This document shows positions 2,866 through 10,394 of a DNA stretch of 10,619 nt, piece after piece. How positions within the stretch are numbered: position 1 is the stretch's first letter; the number at the start of each line of letters is the position of its first letter. Below the pieces are notes generated by a model. It made no database searches and was not told the origin of the DNA. It was given only the letters and a program-made list of their open reading frames with translations. Made by a program: the position numbers and the translations under genes. Source of the stretch: a virus (Duplodnaviria > Heunggongvirae > Uroviricota > Caudoviricetes); the IMG/VR virus record IMGVR_UViG_2778261593_000002, positions 1 to 10,619 of that record; one strand, given 5' to 3'.

Positions 2866-3021
2866 TTACTTCTCAGATTCGTAGTCTACGAAGACAGCAA
2901 CCTCCGTCTGGCCGGTTCGGATTCGTACCTCGCAGAGGTCTTTCCTCGTTACCAGTGCCGTCACTATGACGGTTAAACAGATGACGATCAGGGCGATTAA
3001 CATCGCCTTTTGCTGCTTCAT
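2866..3021 (-). CDS. hok: Hok/Gef-family type I toxin (small membrane peptide), 51 aa
   Basis: MKQQKAMLIALIVICLTVIVTALVTRKDLCEVRIRTGQTEVAVFVDYESEK is near-identical to Hok/Gef/RelF family sequences recalled from memory. ATG at 3021..3019 with AAGGAG Shine-Dalgarno 9 nt upstream. Confidence 0.9.
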   Translation of the reverse strand: MKQQKAMLIALIVICLTVIVTALVTRKDLCEVRIRTGQTEVAVFVDYESEK

Positions 3022-3078
3022 AGCCTGCTTCTCCTTGCCTTTCGGCACGTAAGAGGCTAACCTACATTTGTGAGACAT
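2866..3078 (-). CDS. mok: Mok-like in-frame N-terminally extended reading frame sharing the hok stop codon (70 aa)
   Basis: ATG at 3078..3076 with GAGG about 9 nt upstream; in frame with hok and adds 19 residues (MSHKCRLASYVPKGKEKQA). This mirrors the mokC/hokC arrangement (longer frame sharing the 3' end). Confidence 0.55.
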   Translation of the reverse strand: MSHKCRLASYVPKGKEKQAMKQQKAMLIALIVICLTVIVTALVTRKDLCEVRIRTGQTEVAVFVDYESEK

Positions 3079-3120
3079 AGATTGGGCCTCAGATTAATGT
3101 TAAGCGTCTTGCAGGACGCG
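3035..3120 (+). ncRNA. Candidate Sok-like antisense RNA region (promoter plus RNA) opposite the mok translation initiation region
   Basis: Plus strand TTGCCT (3035-3040) - 17 nt - TAACCT (3058-3063) would start transcription near 3070, antisense to the mok Shine-Dalgarno/ATG (3076-3095). A hairpin GCGTC-TTGCAG-GACGC lies at 3104-3119 but no clean U-run follows. Weak evidence. Confidence 0.25.
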
Positions 3121-3179
3121 TAATGTTAACTGGGGCTTTTCTCTATCTGCCTTTTGGTGTTCATGCCTGAGGCAGATAG

Positions 3180-3225
3180 CCTCAAGCACCCGCAGCAATT
3201 CTACTTAACTCTCCTTTTCCCGCAA
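3180..3225 (-). promoter_or_regulatory. Putative hok/mok promoter and mRNA 5' end
   Basis: Minus strand TTGCGG (3225..3220) - 16 nt - TAGAAT (3203..3198); predicted start near 3191, which coincides with the 5' partner (3193..3180) of the fold-back pairing. A 9-bp hairpin CTATCTGCC / GGCAGATAG (3144-3179) lies in the leader. Confidence 0.4.
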
Positions 3226-5715: not shown

Positions 5716-6008
5716 TGTGTCTTCTCCTGGAAAATAACCGCATGCCCCAGTTTCTCCGCCAGTGCCAATTCTGCCTTAGCACCTGCTGACCGCTGCCAGC
5801 CTTTCAGCATGTAAATCGCATCCACACAACGAATCATTGCCATGCAAATATCCATGTAGTGTGGCTGTGTCAGCCCGTCCGGAAGTACTGCCGGGTTTAA
5901 GACTGTATGCCCTTCCCGTTTCAGTTCCTCTTCCGCCTTGTGGAACGCCTCACGGTTGAAATTTTTATACCCGGTCATTGGACCGGCGATATAAACCCTT
6001 ACCCTCAC
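5712..6008 (-). CDS. DUF4406 / nucleoside 2-deoxyribosyltransferase-like protein, 98 aa
   Basis: N-terminal VYIAGPMTG motif is characteristic of that superfamily as I recall it; GTG start at 6008..6006 overlapping the upstream stop (GTGA) with AGGAGG 8 nt upstream. Confidence 0.55.
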   Translation of the reverse strand: MRVRVYIAGPMTGYKNFNREAFHKAEEELKREGHTVLNPAVLPDGLTQPHYMDICMAMIRCVDAIYMLKGWQRSAGAKAELALAEKLGHAVIFQEKTQ

Positions 6009-6406
6009 TCCATCACCTCCTGAAAATCTCCCTGATAGAACGCCAGTACACGCTGCATAACCTCACTCTGACGGCACTCACGGCAAATTATGTTCTGGTG
6101 CCGGTCGTAGGGTTGTGCTCCGGCTTTACCCTGTTTTTGTGCTGGTTTGCGGATAACCCTTGCTTTTCTTGCCGAACTTGCCAGCCATTCACGGTAAACT
6201 CCCTCTGAAAGGAATACCCCTTTTCCGCTGACAACATACACTTCGCCCTGGCTCACCAGCATCTTCAGGTACCGGCGAATGGAATCATGTGAAGCATATG
6301 TTGTCGATGCCAGTTGTGGCATTGTCATACGCCCGTTTTTACGTACAAGGTCAACGATGTGACGCTGTAATCTTTCCCGCTGTTCTTCGGTATAAATAGC
6401 CCCCAT
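6005..6406 (-). CDS. Hypothetical winged-helix-like DNA-binding protein, 133 aa (sits where a helicase loader would be expected)
   Basis: ATG at 6406..6404 with AGGAGA 5 nt upstream; segment MTMPQLASTTYASHDSIRRYLKMLVSQGEVYVV resembles a winged HTH. No AAA+ or DnaC-like motifs seen. Confidence 0.5.
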   Translation of the reverse strand: MGAIYTEEQRERLQRHIVDLVRKNGRMTMPQLASTTYASHDSIRRYLKMLVSQGEVYVVSGKGVFLSEGVYREWLASSARKARVIRKPAQKQGKAGAQPYDRHQNIICRECRQSEVMQRVLAFYQGDFQEVME

Positions 6407-6448: not shown

Positions 6449-7381
6449 TTACCCCCTGAACCCCGGCGGAATTTCGGTGTCCGGTTCAGAAATGTGATTC
6501 ACGCAACGCTGTACAGGCGAACGCCCCAGACGAATAACCAGCTCATCCCATTTTTCGCGAAGCTTTGACGGGCTCATGACGTTTTTTACCCAGAATGGAT
6601 CCCGCTGTACCCGACCAAACATTTCGCAAATTTGTCTGTGAGTTCTGCCATCCAACATCCGCATTGTGCGCACATCATTGGCCCATGCAGTCCAGTTGGG
6701 TTCTTTCGGTCGCATGATTTCGCCATCATCGCTGGCAGCCTGCTCGTAAAGACTCACGATTCGTCCCCAGATCCACTGCGCACACGCTAAATCTTCCTGG
6801 CTGCCCCACTGGCGTTTTTTCGCACTGAACACAACCGCGTCAGGGTGTCGGGTTAAAAAATCCTGTTCAGCCGTCTGCGAGTCCGGTTGCGAAGCTTCCG
6901 GACGAAAAGATCTTTTATCTGACGGATCAGGTTTTAATACTGACGGATCGGGGCCAACCATCGCCCCCCTAACCGGATGTTTTTTATCAACGGTTGATCC
7001 ATCAAAATTTGAGGGGTCAATATTTGACGGGTCATTTTTTACCGGGTTAATTTTTCTTTTCGGTTTATATGCCTCACGCGCCGCCGCTGCTGCTGCTTCG
7101 AGTTTTTCCACATTAAGACGGTAGATATTGCTTTCATTACGCCCACCGACCTTACGTTCTTCCTTCGTCAGCCAGCCGTTCTTTTCCAGTTCTGCTATCG
7201 CAGCTTTAACCGTTGATTCACTCTTTGCCCCAATCTGACGACGAATGGTCTCCACTGCAGGCCATGACACACCTTCGTCATTGCTGTAATCTGCAAGGCG
7301 AGCCATTACTGCCACCCTGGATAAGATCATGCCGGTGAAGGCGCACCCTTCCCAGACAAGACCATGAAGCTTGCTGCTCAT
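6449..7381 (-). CDS. Replication initiation protein (lambda O-like: N-terminal HTH domain, iteron-containing linker), 310 aa
   Basis: ATG at 7381..7379 with GGAG 7 nt upstream; N-terminal HTH-like segment; central repetitive DPSNIDPSNFDGS...GPDPSVLKPDPSD region encoded by DNA iterons; position after the cro/cII-analog genes. Confidence 0.65.
   Translation of the reverse strand: MSSKLHGLVWEGCAFTGMILSRVAVMARLADYSNDEGVSWPAVETIRRQIGAKSESTVKAAIAELEKNGWLTKEERKVGGRNESNIYRLNVEKLEAAAAAAREAYKPKRKINPVKNDPSNIDPSNFDGSTVDKKHPVRGAMVGPDPSVLKPDPSDKRSFRPEASQPDSQTAEQDFLTRHPDAVVFSAKKRQWGSQEDLACAQWIWGRIVSLYEQAASDDGEIMRPKEPNWTAWANDVRTMRMLDGRTHRQICEMFGRVQRDPFWVKNVMSPSKLREKWDELVIRLGRSPVQRCVNHISEPDTEIPPGFRG
6918..7060. 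repeat. Candidate replication origin: four to five GG(A/G)TC-containing iterons followed by an AT-rich stretch, inside the O-like gene
   Basis: TCTGACGGATC (6918-6928), ACTGACGGATC (6939-6949), TTTGAGGGGTC (7008-7018), TTTGACGGGTC (7024-7034), then TTTTTTACCGGGTTAATTTTTCTTTTCGGTTTATAT (7035-7070). Confidence 0.5.
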
Positions 7382-7405: not shown

Positions 7406-7831
7406 TTAGTGCATCACCAGGGCATTTCCCGCCGGACCACCACGATTCATCTGATTGAAACCAGCGATCGCCACTGCGACAAAATCATCAGCGTCTCTCA
7501 CCAGTCGCTCCCGCGTCTCCACCAGCTCCCGAAAATAAGCTGAACTGTGGCTGCGCATTCTGGCCACCAGCAAAGGTGGCATTGCCTTTTCGATCGCTGG
7601 TAACAACGCCTGAATTTTTTCAACTGCATCAGGGGTGTCTTTCTCTACCCAGCGGAAAATTTTCTGGGTATTGCGAGCCAGGGCTTCCGGATGGCTGTCG
7701 TCATACAGTTCCGGGAACGTCATTCCCAGCTCGAAATACGCTTTGGTAATTTTCGCAGCCGGTACTTTTTCGCCGTCCGGATGCGCCCAGGCATTCATCG
7801 CCATGCGGATGTGTTCATGCTTGATTTTCAT
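7406..7831 (-). CDS. YdaT-like protein (reported CII functional analog of Rac-type prophages), 141 aa
   Basis: N-terminus MKIKHEHI and C-terminus ending VMH match what I recall of E. coli Rac YdaT; start overlaps the cro-like stop (ATGA); GGGGG Shine-Dalgarno upstream. Confidence 0.6.
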   Translation of the reverse strand: MKIKHEHIRMAMNAWAHPDGEKVPAAKITKAYFELGMTFPELYDDSHPEALARNTQKIFRWVEKDTPDAVEKIQALLPAIEKAMPPLLVARMRSHSSAYFRELVETRERLVRDADDFVAVAIAGFNQMNRGGPAGNALVMH

Positions 7832-8058
7832 GAATCCCCCCCTTGGTTAGAAGGCGGATTATGATCAGAACCGGGAATGACAACCGTCGGTATGTGTAAC
7901 TCATATTTGAGCGCCCCGGCAGTGACTGCCTGAATTAGCAACGCCCATTTCCACGGAACCTCTTCCCCCCACATGCTGACTGTGGTTTTTGACGTTCCTA
8001 GAGCTGCGGCTGTTTTAACAACTCCGCCAAAATAGCCTAATACTTCTGATTTTTTCAT
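7828..8058 (-). CDS. Cro/YdaS/DicC-like small HTH regulator, 76 aa
   Basis: ORF 7828..8106 trimmed to ATG at 8058..8056 with GGAG 7 nt upstream; HTH-like segment VVKTAAALGTSKTTVSMW; divergent from the CI-like gene across a 91-bp operator region. Confidence 0.65.
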   Translation of the reverse strand: MKKSEVLGYFGGVVKTAAALGTSKTTVSMWGEEVPWKWALLIQAVTAGALKYELHIPTVVIPGSDHNPPSNQGGDS

Positions 8059-8151
8059 GAGTCGCTCCATAAAACTGAACGTCAAAAGTTTAATAATCAA
8101 AACCAAAAAAAGTCAAGAAACAAAACCATCTGTGTTTTAAAATCAAAACAT
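8059..8151. promoter_or_regulatory. Divergent immunity control region (OR-like): PR-like and PRM-like promoters with a palindromic operator
   Basis: Perfect inverted repeat TGTTTT-aaaatc-AAAACAT at 8133-8151, overlapping the CI start codon and a TAAAAT -10 (8138-8143). Minus strand has TTGACT at 8116..8111 followed by AT-rich -10 candidates for the cro-like gene. No Shine-Dalgarno precedes the CI ATG, suggesting a leaderless transcript. Confidence 0.55.
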
Positions 8152-8788
8152 GAGCAAGCAAACTATATCTGAACGCATAACCCAACGTATGCATGCGCTA
8201 AACCTGAAAGGCAAAGACCTTGTCAATGGCACTGGCGCATCAAAAGGCTCCGTAAGTCAATGGATGAACGGTGGAGGAGCGCCGTCCTCGCGTTACATAA
8301 GTTCACTGGCAAAAATATTGAAAGTAAACGAAAATTGGCTTCTTAATGGAGGAGAGTTAAATACAGGTGATTCGCTTGATCTATCTTTACCGCCGATAAA
8401 AACGGTTCCGCTACTATCACTTCAGCAGGCAGCAAGCTGGAGTGATTATATGAAAAATTCCTCAATAACCTCTTGTGTGCAGCTTGTCGGAGAAATCCCG
8501 GTCAATACCTTTGCAGTTGTTCTAGAGAGTGACAGTATGTCAACATCTGGTGGGGGAGTTTCCATCCCAAATGGTTCAACAGTTTTTGTTGATCCCGATC
8601 GAACCGTACAACCAGGAAATATTGTCCTTGCCTTACCCAAAGGGACCACAACACCTGTCATTCGTAAACTGGAGATAGAAGGGCCGGATATTCTTTTAGT
8701 CCCCACGAATCCTCGCTACCCTTCAATTATGCTGGATGATCTATCTTGCATATTGGGCGTATGCTTTAAAATTCAACAAGATATTTAA
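8150..8788 (+). CDS. CI-type prophage repressor with N-terminal HTH and C-terminal S24 (LexA-like) autopeptidase domain, 212 aa
   Basis: N-terminal HTH (ISERITQRMHALNLKGKDLVNGTGASKGSVSQW); C-terminal ESDSM...VFVDPDR...VIRKL...LVPTNPRYPSI parallels lambda CI motifs GDSM / VDPE / KKL / LNPQYPMI. Confidence 0.85.
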   Translation: MSKQTISERITQRMHALNLKGKDLVNGTGASKGSVSQWMNGGGAPSSRYISSLAKILKVNENWLLNGGELNTGDSLDLSLPPIKTVPLLSLQQAASWSDYMKNSSITSCVQLVGEIPVNTFAVVLESDSMSTSGGGVSIPNGSTVFVDPDRTVQPGNIVLALPKGTTTPVIRKLEIEGPDILLVPTNPRYPSIMLDDLSCILGVCFKIQQDI

Positions 8789-10337: not shown

Positions 10338-10394
10338 TTCTGGTGACATTTGGCGGTATCAGTTTTACTCCGTGACTGCTCTGCCGCCCTTTTT
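10338..10394 (+). ncRNA. dicF: DicF small regulatory RNA with its Rho-independent terminator
   Basis: TTCTGGTGACATTTGGCGGTATCAGTTTTACTCCGTGACTGCTCTGCCGCCCTTTTTT matches the E. coli DicF sequence as I recall it with one or two substitutions; GGCGG...CCGCC stem followed by a T-run; position between ydfC-like and dicB-like genes. Confidence 0.8.

What the first reader, a model, noticed from the sequence alone, without database searches (positions are those of the whole stretch)
6918..7070. Iteron array plus AT-rich stretch embedded in the O-like gene
Four to five GG(A/G)TC-core direct repeats spaced at 16-21 bp are followed by an AT-rich segment. They lie in the middle of the replication initiator gene, where they encode a repetitive DPS-rich linker, the classic ori-lambda arrangement. 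This points to a functional origin despite the absence of an obvious helicase-loader gene.
Basis: partly seen in the sequence, partly recalled or inferred. Interest (0 to 1): 0.45.

Follow-up and report, generated by a model that had tools for sequence, protein, structure and literature searches.

The report
Prophage replication origin inside initiator gene
The short repeats in the middle of this prophage gene are very probably the binding sites its own replication-initiator protein uses to start copying the phage DNA, the same layout as the textbook phage lambda origin with a different DNA-binding domain and different repeats, so this is a well-supported but ordinary finding.

Summary
The repeats are real. 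Five 10-bp cores (sense strand TGAYSSRTCA) lie at 7025, 7010, 6995, 6941 and 6920, and one is inverted. Spacing is 15, 15, 54 and 21 bp, not the 16-21 bp reported. They sit in the part of the 310-aa initiator gene (6449-7381, minus strand) that encodes a predicted disordered linker.

Four results point to selection on the DNA rather than on the peptide:
- Synonymous codon identity across genera is 0.85 in the linker against 0.49 in the folded domains (p = 9e-10).
- The unit occurs in both orientations (Asp-Pro-Ser or Glu-Gly-Ser), and in phiP27 in two reading frames.
- Initiators with another N-terminal domain and the same C-terminal half (mEp460, Rac YdaU) carry unrelated repeats at the same place.
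- The C-terminal half is homologous to lambda O (E = 1e-26). The first unit and a conserved inverted repeat (6881-6903) lie at the same gene positions as the first lambda iteron and the ori-lambda palindrome.

The AT-rich tract at 7036-7070 is modest and is not conserved across genera. No helicase loader lies between this gene and Q. About a third of close relatives, and isolated phages such as mEp460 and SfII, share that arrangement.

Verdict: a lambda-type origin with a new iteron and N-domain pairing. Nothing has been tested experimentally.

The parts
6449..7381 (-). Replication initiator gene (310 aa), O-like. It has an N-terminal winged helix, a disordered linker, a lambda-O-like C-domain and a short tail.
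   Evidence: ORF. PHROG 391 over the full length, 1e-112. Pfam HTH_36 at aa 25-71. AlphaFold2 domain layout.
7070..7381 (-). N-terminal winged-helix DNA-binding domain (aa 1-104), the presumed iteron reader.
   Evidence: HTH_36, 5e-8. pLDDT 73-88 with a helix-helix-helix-helix, two-strand wing, helix topology. Weak Foldseek matches to dimeric ArsR/MarR/PadR winged-helix repressors, best E = 3e-3.
7036..7070 (.). A-rich (sense strand) tract of 30% GC.
   Evidence: Composition. Duplex stability rank 237 of 10,579. Neither the sequence nor the peptide is conserved in the Erwinia and Edwardsiella homologues.
6995..7034 (.). Tandem iteron cluster: three 12-bp quasi-palindromic units (sense TTGACCCGTCAA-like) at a 15-bp period, with cores at 7025-7034, 7010-7019 and 6995-7004. 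The third is inverted.
   Evidence: Copy number varies in 15-bp steps among relatives. Both orientations occur in homologues.
6961..6972 (.). Degenerate unit in the spacer (sense TTAGGGGGGCGA). It corresponds to an intact inverted unit, TTAAGGGGTCAA, in the Erwinia, Mixta and Edwardsiella homologues.
   Evidence: Codon-level comparison.
6920..6950 (.). Distal iteron pair: sense CGATCCGTCA (6941-6950) and TGATCCGTCA (6920-6929), 21 bp apart. Both contain GATC.
   Evidence: Both copies use the codons GAT CCG TCA in most clade representatives; a few differ by one base (CCA, or TTA for TCA).
6900..6940 (.). Second low-GC patch (35% GC) interleaved with the distal iterons. GATC sites lie at 6909, 6925, 6946 and 6996. 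It sits where lambda has its AT-rich region, between the iterons and the palindrome.
   Evidence: Comparison of layout with lambda.
6881..6903 (.). Inverted repeat GTCCGG-N11-CCGGAC. The arms are conserved and the loop varies.
   Evidence: Present in 89 of 98 fetched loci, including mEp460, whose iterons are unrelated. Synonymous identity is highest here, 0.94. It occupies the same gene position (nt 479) as the ori-lambda palindrome (nt 477).
6515..6874 (-). C-terminal helical domain (aa 170-289), homologous to the C-terminal half of lambda O.
   Evidence: BLASTP alignment spanning aa 156-283: 38% identity over 128 aa, E = 1e-26. pLDDT 68-88 over most of the domain, lower at its N-terminal edge.
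6452..6511 (-). Disordered C-terminal tail (aa 291-310) ending SEPDTEIPPGFRG, nearly identical to the C-terminal tail of host DnaT.
   Evidence: Matches to PDB 2ru8, 6aep and 9zbt, and to NCBIfam DnaT. pLDDT below 50. This motif in O-like proteins was noted in PMC5509034.
8087..8116 (-). pR-like promoter (TTGACT-18-TAAACT) upstream of the cro-like, YdaT/CII-like and initiator genes. It would drive transcription through the origin.
   Evidence: Consensus scan only. Gene order.
6005..6406 (-). DUF977 / Ren-like gene immediately downstream of the initiator. It occupies the place where relatives carry a DnaC-like or lambda-P-like loader gene.
   Evidence: Relatives.

Best explanation
Window 6881-7070 is the replication origin of a lambdoid (Rac/Qin-like) prophage. 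It lies inside the linker-coding part of the phage's own O-like initiator gene.

**Proposed mechanism (all steps inferred).**
1. Transcription from a pR-like promoter produces the initiator.
2. The N-terminal winged-helix domain, probably as a dimer, binds the quasi-palindromic units TGA-N4-TCA. There are three units at a 15-bp period and two more 21 bp apart.
3. The resulting complex, like the lambda O-some, destabilises a neighbouring low-GC stretch. This is either 6900-6940, next to the conserved inverted repeat as in lambda, or 7036-7070.
4. The lambda-O-like C-terminal domain and the DnaT-like tail then bring in the host DnaB helicase. Because this phage has no loader gene, that probably occurs through host DnaC.

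**What is shown in silico.** The repeats are non-random, they are under DNA-level constraint, they travel with the N-terminal domain, and their position matches ori-lambda.

**What is inferred.** Binding, unwinding, helicase recruitment and activity in this particular prophage.
For: 1. **Non-random cluster.** All three TGAYSSRTCA hits fall in this region, against 0.17 expected.
2. **DNA-level constraint.** At amino acids conserved among six clade representatives, codon identity is 0.85 for aa 116-172 and 0.49 in the two folded domains (Mann-Whitney p = 9e-10). In the window, the Ser codon within units is TCA in 5 of 5 cases, against 3 of 19 elsewhere in the gene (p = 0.0013).
3. **The peptide is not what is conserved.** The unit occurs in both orientations, coding DPS or EGS/DGS. 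In phiP27 the same 18-19-nt unit is read in two frames, FDPSDS and LTLQNL. AlphaFold2 predicts no structure for aa 110-167.
4. **The repeats swap together with the N-terminal domain.**
   - mEp460 shares the C-terminal half at 89% DNA identity, starting exactly below the last iteron.
   - It has a different N-domain and 5-6 unrelated 23-bp repeats plus an AT-rich 3 x 12-bp block.
   - Rac YdaU (DUF1376) has four copies of AAGCAGATGTTCAA.
   - The same N-domain joined to three different C-domains keeps the TGA-N4-TCA units at a 15-bp period.
   - The bases flanking the core covary with the N-domain subgroup in a way that preserves the palindrome: TTGA..TCAA against CTGA..TCAG.
5. **Layout homologous to ori-lambda**.
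6. **Positive control.** Lambda-type O genes also show raised synonymous identity over the origin (0.75 against 0.44 in the N-domain) and iteron-encoded peptide repeats.
7. **The loader-less arrangement occurs in isolated phages**: mEp460, SfII and KpF5.
8. **No competing feature.** No Rfam family and no alternative long ORF covers the region.
Against: - There are no experimental data for this family. I found no paper describing these iterons.
- A 15-bp period (a multiple of 3) with copy number varying in 15-bp steps is also what replication slippage in a low-complexity coding linker would produce.
- A spacing of 15 bp is about 1.4 helical turns, unlike the roughly 2-turn phasing of the lambda iterons.
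- Neither AT-rich patch is strong (30-35% GC).
- Part of the synonymous conservation (aa 155-170) lies at a mosaic module junction. It could reflect recombination history rather than origin function.
- The window allele has the fewest tandem units (3, where most relatives have 4-5) and no loader, so this copy could be weakened or inactive.
Confidence: 0.8

Rival explanations
1. The repeats are only a coding feature. On this view they are a low-complexity, slippage-prone DPS-rich flexible linker between two protein domains, with no cis-acting DNA role, and the real origin lies elsewhere.
For: - The unit length is a multiple of three, and copy number varies in whole units among near-identical genes.
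- The linker is predicted to be disordered.
- The AT-rich tract is weak.
Against: - Synonymous sites are far more conserved here than in the folded domains.
- The unit survives inversion (DPS becomes EGS) and a change of reading frame.
- The repeats change completely when only the N-terminal DNA-binding domain is exchanged.
- The layout matches the experimentally defined ori-lambda within a homologous gene.
Confidence: 0.08
2. The repeats are a genuine cis-element but not an origin. They could be an autoregulatory operator for the initiator, a binding array for another factor (for example SeqA or Dam acting at the GATC cluster, or the downstream DUF977 helix-turn-helix protein), or conserved 'linker' DNA that promotes exchange of modules between phages.
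For: - Four GATC sites lie within 100 bp (6909-6996). The GATCs in the distal pair are conserved across genera, and several relatives encode a Dam methylase just downstream.
- The mosaic junction with mEp460-type genes lies exactly at the edge of the array.
Against: - The GATC cluster alone is not significant across the window (14% of simulations reach it).
- The units covary with the initiator's own N-domain, not with neighbouring genes, which differ among loci.
- The positional match to the lambda iterons, AT-rich region and palindrome favours an origin.
Confidence: 0.07
3. The element is an origin by descent but is dead in this prophage. The element lacks the DnaC-like loader (and the DUF1627 gene) that many close relatives carry, and its iteron array is the shortest allele seen, so it may no longer fire.
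For: - 37 of about 80 close relatives have a DnaC-like gene directly after the initiator, while the window goes straight to DUF977.
- The window has 3 tandem units, where most relatives have 4 or 5.
- The context is Rac/Qin-like prophage DNA carrying DicF and hok/sok.
Against: - About 26 relatives, and the isolated phages mEp460, SfII and KpF5, have the same loader-less arrangement.
- The initiator ORF is intact and close to the family consensus.
- For lambda, two iterons plus the AT-rich region are reported to suffice in vitro (PMC7466680).
Confidence: 0.2

Closest known systems
ori-lambda within gene O of phage lambda (and the Stx-phage variants with six iterons)
   Same: - The origin lies in the middle of the initiator gene, in a linker between an N-terminal DNA-binding domain and a C-terminal domain.
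- The C-terminal domain is homologous (38% identity, E = 1e-26).
- The first repeat starts at gene nt 348, against 349 in lambda. An inverted repeat lies at nt 479, against 477.
- Each unit has internal dyad symmetry.
- Iteron copy number differs between relatives, adding amino acids to the protein (PMC7466680).
- Upstream gene order is the same: cI-like repressor, then cro, then a cII-position gene, then the initiator.
   Different: - The N-terminal domain is HTH_36, not Phage_rep_O.
- The units are 10-12 bp (TGA-N4-TCA) at 15-bp and 21-bp spacing, in two clusters and in mixed orientation. Lambda has four 18-20-bp iterons at 20-24 bp spacing.
- The AT-rich DNA is much weaker.
- No P gene follows.
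- The C-terminal tail is DnaT-like (IPPGFRG), not the lambda tail (TDWIYGVDL).
Initiators of the isolated phages SfII, KpF5, YeP1 and phiP27, and homologues in Erwinia, Mixta and Edwardsiella prophages (same HTH_36 N-domain family)
   Same: - The N-domain is homologous at 55-82% identity.
- TGA-N4-TCA units occur at a 15-bp period in the same mid-gene position.
- Most have a distal GATCCGTCA pair and most carry the GTCCGG-N11-CCGGAC inverted repeat.
   Different: - The bases flanking the core differ by subgroup.
- The C-domain and tail differ, and so does the partner gene: lambda-P-like in Erwinia and Edwardsiella, DnaC plus DnaB-like in phiP27, none in SfII, KpF5 and YeP1.
- None of these origins has been mapped in the literature I could search.
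Phage mEp460 / HannyBb initiator, and Rac prophage YdaU (oriJ region)
   Same: - They share the C-terminal half and the IPPGFRG tail. mEp460 is 89% identical in DNA from the inverted repeat to the stop codon.
- mEp460 has the same loader-less gene order, and its mid-gene repeat array is followed by an AT-rich block and the same inverted repeat.
- Rac is reported to have an active origin, oriJ (PMC3945230).
   Different: The N-terminal domains are unrelated (no Pfam hit for mEp460, DUF1376 for YdaU). The repeats are also unrelated: 23-bp CATCnGGnCATTTTGACCnGATG in mEp460, and AAGCAGATGTTCAA in YdaU.
Iteron-type plasmid origins (for example the RepA/RepE/pi families)
   Same: A winged-helix initiator is encoded in cis, with an array of short repeated binding sites beside a low-GC stretch.
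   Different: In this element the array lies inside the initiator's coding sequence. The protein has a lambda-O-type C-domain rather than a second winged-helix domain. I tested no sequence homology to plasmid Rep proteins beyond the generic winged-helix matches.

Membership tests
Lambda O / ori-lambda family | N-terminal iteron-binding domain of the Phage_rep_O type (PF04492) | tested here: not met
   The window protein hits only HTH_36. Lambda O, as a control, hits PF04492 at 5.7e-36. BLASTP finds no N-terminal similarity.
Lambda O / ori-lambda family | C-terminal domain homologous to that of lambda O | tested here: met
   38% identity over 128 aa, E = 1e-26.
Lambda O / ori-lambda family | Iteron array in the middle of the initiator gene, followed by an AT-rich region and an inverted repeat | tested here: met
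   - Units lie at gene nt 348-462 and the inverted repeat at nt 479-501. In lambda the iterons are at nt 349-433 and the inverted repeat at nt 477-504.
- The AT-rich part is only 35% GC on that side, so this sub-feature is weak.
Lambda O / ori-lambda family | Partner helicase loader P encoded immediately downstream | tested here: not met
   The next gene is DUF977 / Ren-like. P-like genes follow only those homologues that have a lambda-like W..W..L tail.
Iteron-type replication origin (general) | Three or more repeated sites that are more than chance and conserved as DNA | tested here: met
   Conserved across genera and in both orientations.
Iteron-type replication origin (general) | Sites are bound specifically by the cis-encoded initiator | not testable with these tools
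   The evidence is indirect only: the repeats swap together with the N-domain, and the N-domain has a winged-helix fold.
Iteron-type replication origin (general) | Adjacent DNA-unwinding element | tested here: inconclusive
   There are two low-GC patches, 7036-7070 (30% GC) and 6900-6940 (35% GC). Both are about 2 SD less stable than the window mean, but neither is extreme, and the first is not conserved.
Iteron-type replication origin (general) | Supports autonomous replication | not testable with these tools
   This requires a plasmid or marker-frequency experiment.
Rac YdaU (DUF1376) initiators / oriJ | DUF1376 N-terminal domain | tested here: not met
   YdaU hits DUF1376 and the window protein does not. 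The two share little beyond a weakly similar C-terminal part (22% identity overall) and the IPPGFRG tail.

The most novel reading that the evidence does not exclude
The short C-terminal tail, not the origin, decides how these initiators obtain a helicase.

**Pattern observed.**
- Initiators ending in the DnaT-like motif SEPDxxIPPGFRG are followed either by a DnaC-like (IstB) gene or by no loader at all, and never by a P-like gene in the loci examined.
- Otherwise similar initiators ending in a lambda-O-like W..W..L tail are always followed by a lambda-P-like gene (5 of 5).

**Reading.** The IPPGFRG tail would be a DnaC-type (or primosome) recruitment peptide. It would let loader-less phages such as this one use the host DnaB-DnaC complex directly. 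By extension, the same tail in host DnaT would be the contact to DnaB/DnaC that the recent preprimosome structures still list as unknown (PMC13377028).
Probability: 0.25. Interest if true: 0.6.

Novelty: new member of a known kind. Interest (0 to 1): 0.3.

Why it matters
**Annotation.** This gives a precise, testable origin annotation (about 6881-7070) for a very common family of enterobacterial prophage initiators. About 1,500 of 5,426 complete E. coli genomes carry this N-domain and repeat module, and it is currently annotated only as 'helix-turn-helix domain-containing protein'.

**Modularity.** It adds another case of the lambda rule that the N-domain and its iterons move as one cassette while the C-domain, tail and loader are exchanged separately.

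**Practical uses.**
- Interpreting induction and copy-number data for Rac/Qin-like prophages.
- Predicting replication incompatibility or cross-activation between co-resident prophages.
- Choosing fragments for new compatible replicons.

The mechanism itself is textbook, so the biological surprise is small.

Tried and rejected
- **C-terminal half and loader.** I first supposed that the C-terminal half would differ between initiators with and without a downstream loader. It does not. The same protein (84-92% identical, same tail) occurs with and without a DnaC-like gene.
- **YdaU orthology.** I supposed the window protein was a YdaU orthologue because of the YdaS/YdaT-like neighbours. The N-domains are unrelated.
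- **DnaA boxes.** None lies near the repeats, and the count in the window is below chance.
- **GATC clustering.** Four sites in 100 bp is the maximum in the window, but 14% of simulated sequences reach it, so I keep it as an observation only.
- **RNA or overlapping genes.** There is no Rfam match in the region and no conserved overlapping ORF, so an RNA or a second gene does not explain the synonymous constraint.
- **Literature.** Searches for oriJ, ydaU/ydaV, 'initiator-solo', iterons and the IPPGFRG motif found no description of this origin type.
- **First attempt at a lambda control.** The scan of viral contigs returned only 99-100% identical O genes. I replaced it with PhiR30_1, SEN34 and HK225. 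That control is weakened by mosaic identity in the C-domain.
- **Solved structures.** The sequence search found only the DnaT tail. Foldseek gave only generic winged-helix matches with E above 1e-3.
Full report
**1. Context**

The window is the early-right region of a lambdoid, Rac/Qin-like prophage.

On the minus strand, in order of transcription:
- a pR-like promoter (8116-8087);
- a P22-Cro/DicC-like gene (7828-8106);
- a YdaT / CII-position gene (7406-7831);
- the 310-aa initiator (6449-7381);
- DUF977 / Ren-like, DUF4406 and DUF4752 genes, several genes of unknown function, hok/sok, DUF968, RusA and the Q antiterminator (314-1039).

On the plus strand lie an S24-peptidase repressor (8150-8788), a DUF1391 gene and DicF.

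No DnaC-, P-, DnaB- or other helicase- or loader-like gene lies between the initiator and Q.

**2. The observation**

Five copies of a 10-bp core lie at 7025-7034, 7010-7019, 6995-7004, 6941-6950 and 6920-6929. Their sense-strand sequences are TGACCCGTCA, TGACCCCTCA, TGATGGATCA, CGATCCGTCA and TGATCCGTCA.

- The degenerate pattern TGAYSSRTCA has 3 hits in 10.6 kb, all in this region, against 0.17 expected. None of 200 shuffles reaches 3.
- GAYSSNTCA gives 8 of its 9 strand-hits here, against 2.3 expected.
- The third unit is inverted.
- The units encode DPS, DPS, DGS, DPS and DPS.
- The tract at 7036-7070 has 30% GC and is about 2 SD less stable than the window mean, but it is not extreme. A second patch at 6900-6940 has 35% GC.

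**3. DNA or peptide?**

I collected homologues from four sources:
- complete E. coli genomes (1,529 of 5,426 carry this N-domain and repeat module);
- 80 viral contigs;
- seven other species: Erwinia, Mixta, Edwardsiella and Scandinavium;
- isolated phages SfII, phiP27, YeP1 and KpF5.

Copy number:
- The closest relative (98% identical) differs by exactly one extra 15-bp unit.
- Alleles with 2 to 5 or more tandem units exist. The window has one of the shortest arrays.

Four observations argue that selection acts on the DNA.

(a) At amino-acid positions conserved among six clade representatives, the codons are identical in 85% of pairwise comparisons for aa 116-172. The figure is 49% in the N- and C-terminal folded domains (Mann-Whitney p = 9e-10. 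A nine-sequence version is).

(b) The unit is a 12-bp quasi-palindrome (TTGA-SSSS-TCAA) that occurs in both orientations within one array. GAC CCC TCA codes Asp-Pro-Ser and GAG GGG TCA codes Glu-Gly-Ser. The peptide changes while the DNA motif is kept.

(c) In phiP27 the same unit, TTTGACCCTTCAGAWTCTG, is read in two different frames.

(d) In the window, the Ser codon within units is TCA in 5 of 5 cases, against 3 of 19 in the rest of the gene (p = 0.0013). This last test is weakened by the shared ancestry of tandem copies.

AlphaFold2, run with a 35-sequence alignment, gives this layout:
- a winged helix for aa 1-104;
- no structure for aa 110-167 (pLDDT below 50);
- a helical domain for aa 170-289;
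- a disordered tail.

The repeats therefore lie exactly in a tether whose amino-acid sequence is barely constrained.

**4. Linkage to the N-terminal domain**

Phage mEp460 (with HannyBb and PhiR42_1) shares the C-terminal half at 89% DNA identity. The similarity begins at about window 6916, immediately below the last unit.

- Its N-terminal domain is unrelated.
- The corresponding mid-gene stretch holds 5-6 copies of an unrelated 23-bp dyad-symmetric repeat at 23-24 bp spacing, followed by three AT-rich 12-mers.
- Rac YdaU, which has a DUF1376 N-domain, carries four copies of AAGCAGATGTTCAA there.

Conversely, the HTH_36 N-domain keeps TGA-N4-TCA units at a 15-bp period when it is fused to three different C-terminal domains: the window type, the Phg_2220_C type in Erwinia endophytica, Scandinavium and YeP1, and the phiP27 type.

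The bases flanking the core differ by N-domain subgroup in a way that preserves the palindrome:
- TTGA..TCAA in the window group;
- CTGA..TCAG in phiP27;
- CTGA..TCAA in the SfII group.

**5. Comparison with ori-lambda**

The lambda record annotates four iterons at O-gene nt 349-433. The same repeat tool recovers them, together with the palindrome at nt 477-504.

In the window gene:
- the first unit starts at nt 348;
- a conserved inverted repeat, GTCCGG-N11-CCGGAC (6881-6903), starts at nt 479;
- the two proteins align from just upstream of that point to near the C-terminus (38% identity, E = 1e-26).

The inverted repeat is present in 89 of 98 loci, including mEp460. Its arms are conserved and its loop varies. 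It sits in the stretch with the highest synonymous identity, 0.94.

In the direction of transcription the order is therefore: iterons, then low-GC DNA (interleaved with the two distal units), then the inverted repeat, then the C-domain, as in lambda. Which patch melts remains open.

As a rough positive control, lambda-type O genes (lambda, PhiR30_1, SEN34 and HK225) also show raised synonymous identity over the origin: 0.75, against 0.44 in the N-domain (p = 0.013). They also have iteron-encoded peptide repeats. Mosaic identity in the C-domain weakens this control.

**6. The missing loader**

Among close relatives carrying the same initiator (examples):
- 37 have a DnaC-like (IstB) gene next;
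- 13 have DUF1627 next;
- about 26, like the window, go straight to DUF977.

The isolated phages mEp460, SfII and KpF5 have no loader gene next to the initiator; YeP1 has none annotated, but its downstream ORF was not scanned. Absence of a loader therefore does not by itself imply a dead replicon.

The last 20 residues (…SEPDTEIPPGFRG) are almost identical to the C-terminal tail of host DnaT. A DnaT C-terminal motif in O-like proteins has been noted before (PMC5509034).

Homologues from Erwinia, Mixta and Edwardsiella end instead in a lambda-O-like W..W..L tail, and all five are followed by a lambda-P-like gene. This suggests that the tail selects the helicase-loading route. That is an inference from co-occurrence only.

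**7. Verdict**

The finding is correct in substance: this is a lambda-type origin embedded in an O-like initiator gene.

It is a new pairing of N-domain and iterons rather than a member of the lambda O family in the strict sense, because the PF04492 domain is absent and no P gene follows.

I found no published description of these iterons. The principle is textbook (PMC7466680). Binding, unwinding, helicase recruitment and activity in this prophage all remain untested.

Noticed in passing
window 6452-6511 (-); L008-L012, L003, L095, L098: The initiator's C-terminal tail type co-occurs with the downstream partner gene. DnaT-like IPPGFRG tails are followed by a DnaC-like gene or by no loader. 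Lambda-O-like W..W..L tails are always followed by a lambda-P-like gene (5 of 5). The rest of the protein can be about 65% identical across the two groups.
   Followed up: partly
window 6881-6903; L007 4433-4455; lambda L099 1163-1190: The inverted repeat GTCCGG-N11-CCGGAC has conserved arms and a variable loop. It is shared by initiators with unrelated iterons and lies at the same gene position as the ori-lambda palindrome. Its role is unknown.
   Followed up: partly
window 6909, 6925, 6946, 6996; L095 4431-5084, L097 4477-5190, L098 3936-4745, L013 3837-4295: Four GATC sites lie within 100 bp at the origin, and two of them are built into the conserved distal units. Several relatives encode a Dam-type methylase one or two genes downstream of the initiator. 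The cluster alone is not significant across the window (p about 0.14).
   Followed up: partly
window 6995-7034 compared with L001 7400-7690 and L002-L005: Iteron copy number is polymorphic in exact 15-bp steps among near-identical E. coli prophages. Gene lengths of 933, 948 and 963 nt are seen, and the window carries one of the shortest alleles.
   Followed up: yes
L096 (phage phiP27) 3001-3927: The same 18-19-nt iteron-like unit, TTTGACCCTTCAGAWTCTG, occurs twice in different reading frames of the initiator gene, coding FDPSDS and LTLQNL.
   Followed up: yes
window 2866-3078 (-) and 3016-3191 (-): A hok/gef-family toxin gene with its sok antisense RNA (Rfam RF01794, 122 bits) lies in the nin-like region.
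   Followed up: no
window 10338-10389 (+): A DicF small RNA (Rfam RF00039, 77 bits) lies near the end of the window. With the DicA/DicC-like repressor pair, it marks the element as Qin/Rac-like.
   Followed up: no
window 7406-7831 (-): The gene in the lambda cII position is a YdaT-family protein (Pfam YdaT_toxin; PHROG 163 'CII-like transcriptional activator'). K-12 annotation now calls YdaT a DNA-binding transcriptional activator.
   Followed up: no
window 6005-6406 (-): The DUF977 protein, which has a winged helix-turn-helix, sits directly after the initiator, in the position of lambda P and ren. PHROGs labels it Ren-like exclusion protein. It also follows the initiator in mEp460, where it is annotated LygF.
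   Followed up: no
L004 1018-2174: In E. coli VL7S7 the DnaC-like loader gene next to the same initiator is split by an IS600 insertion. This is one natural route to a loader-less module.
   Followed up: no
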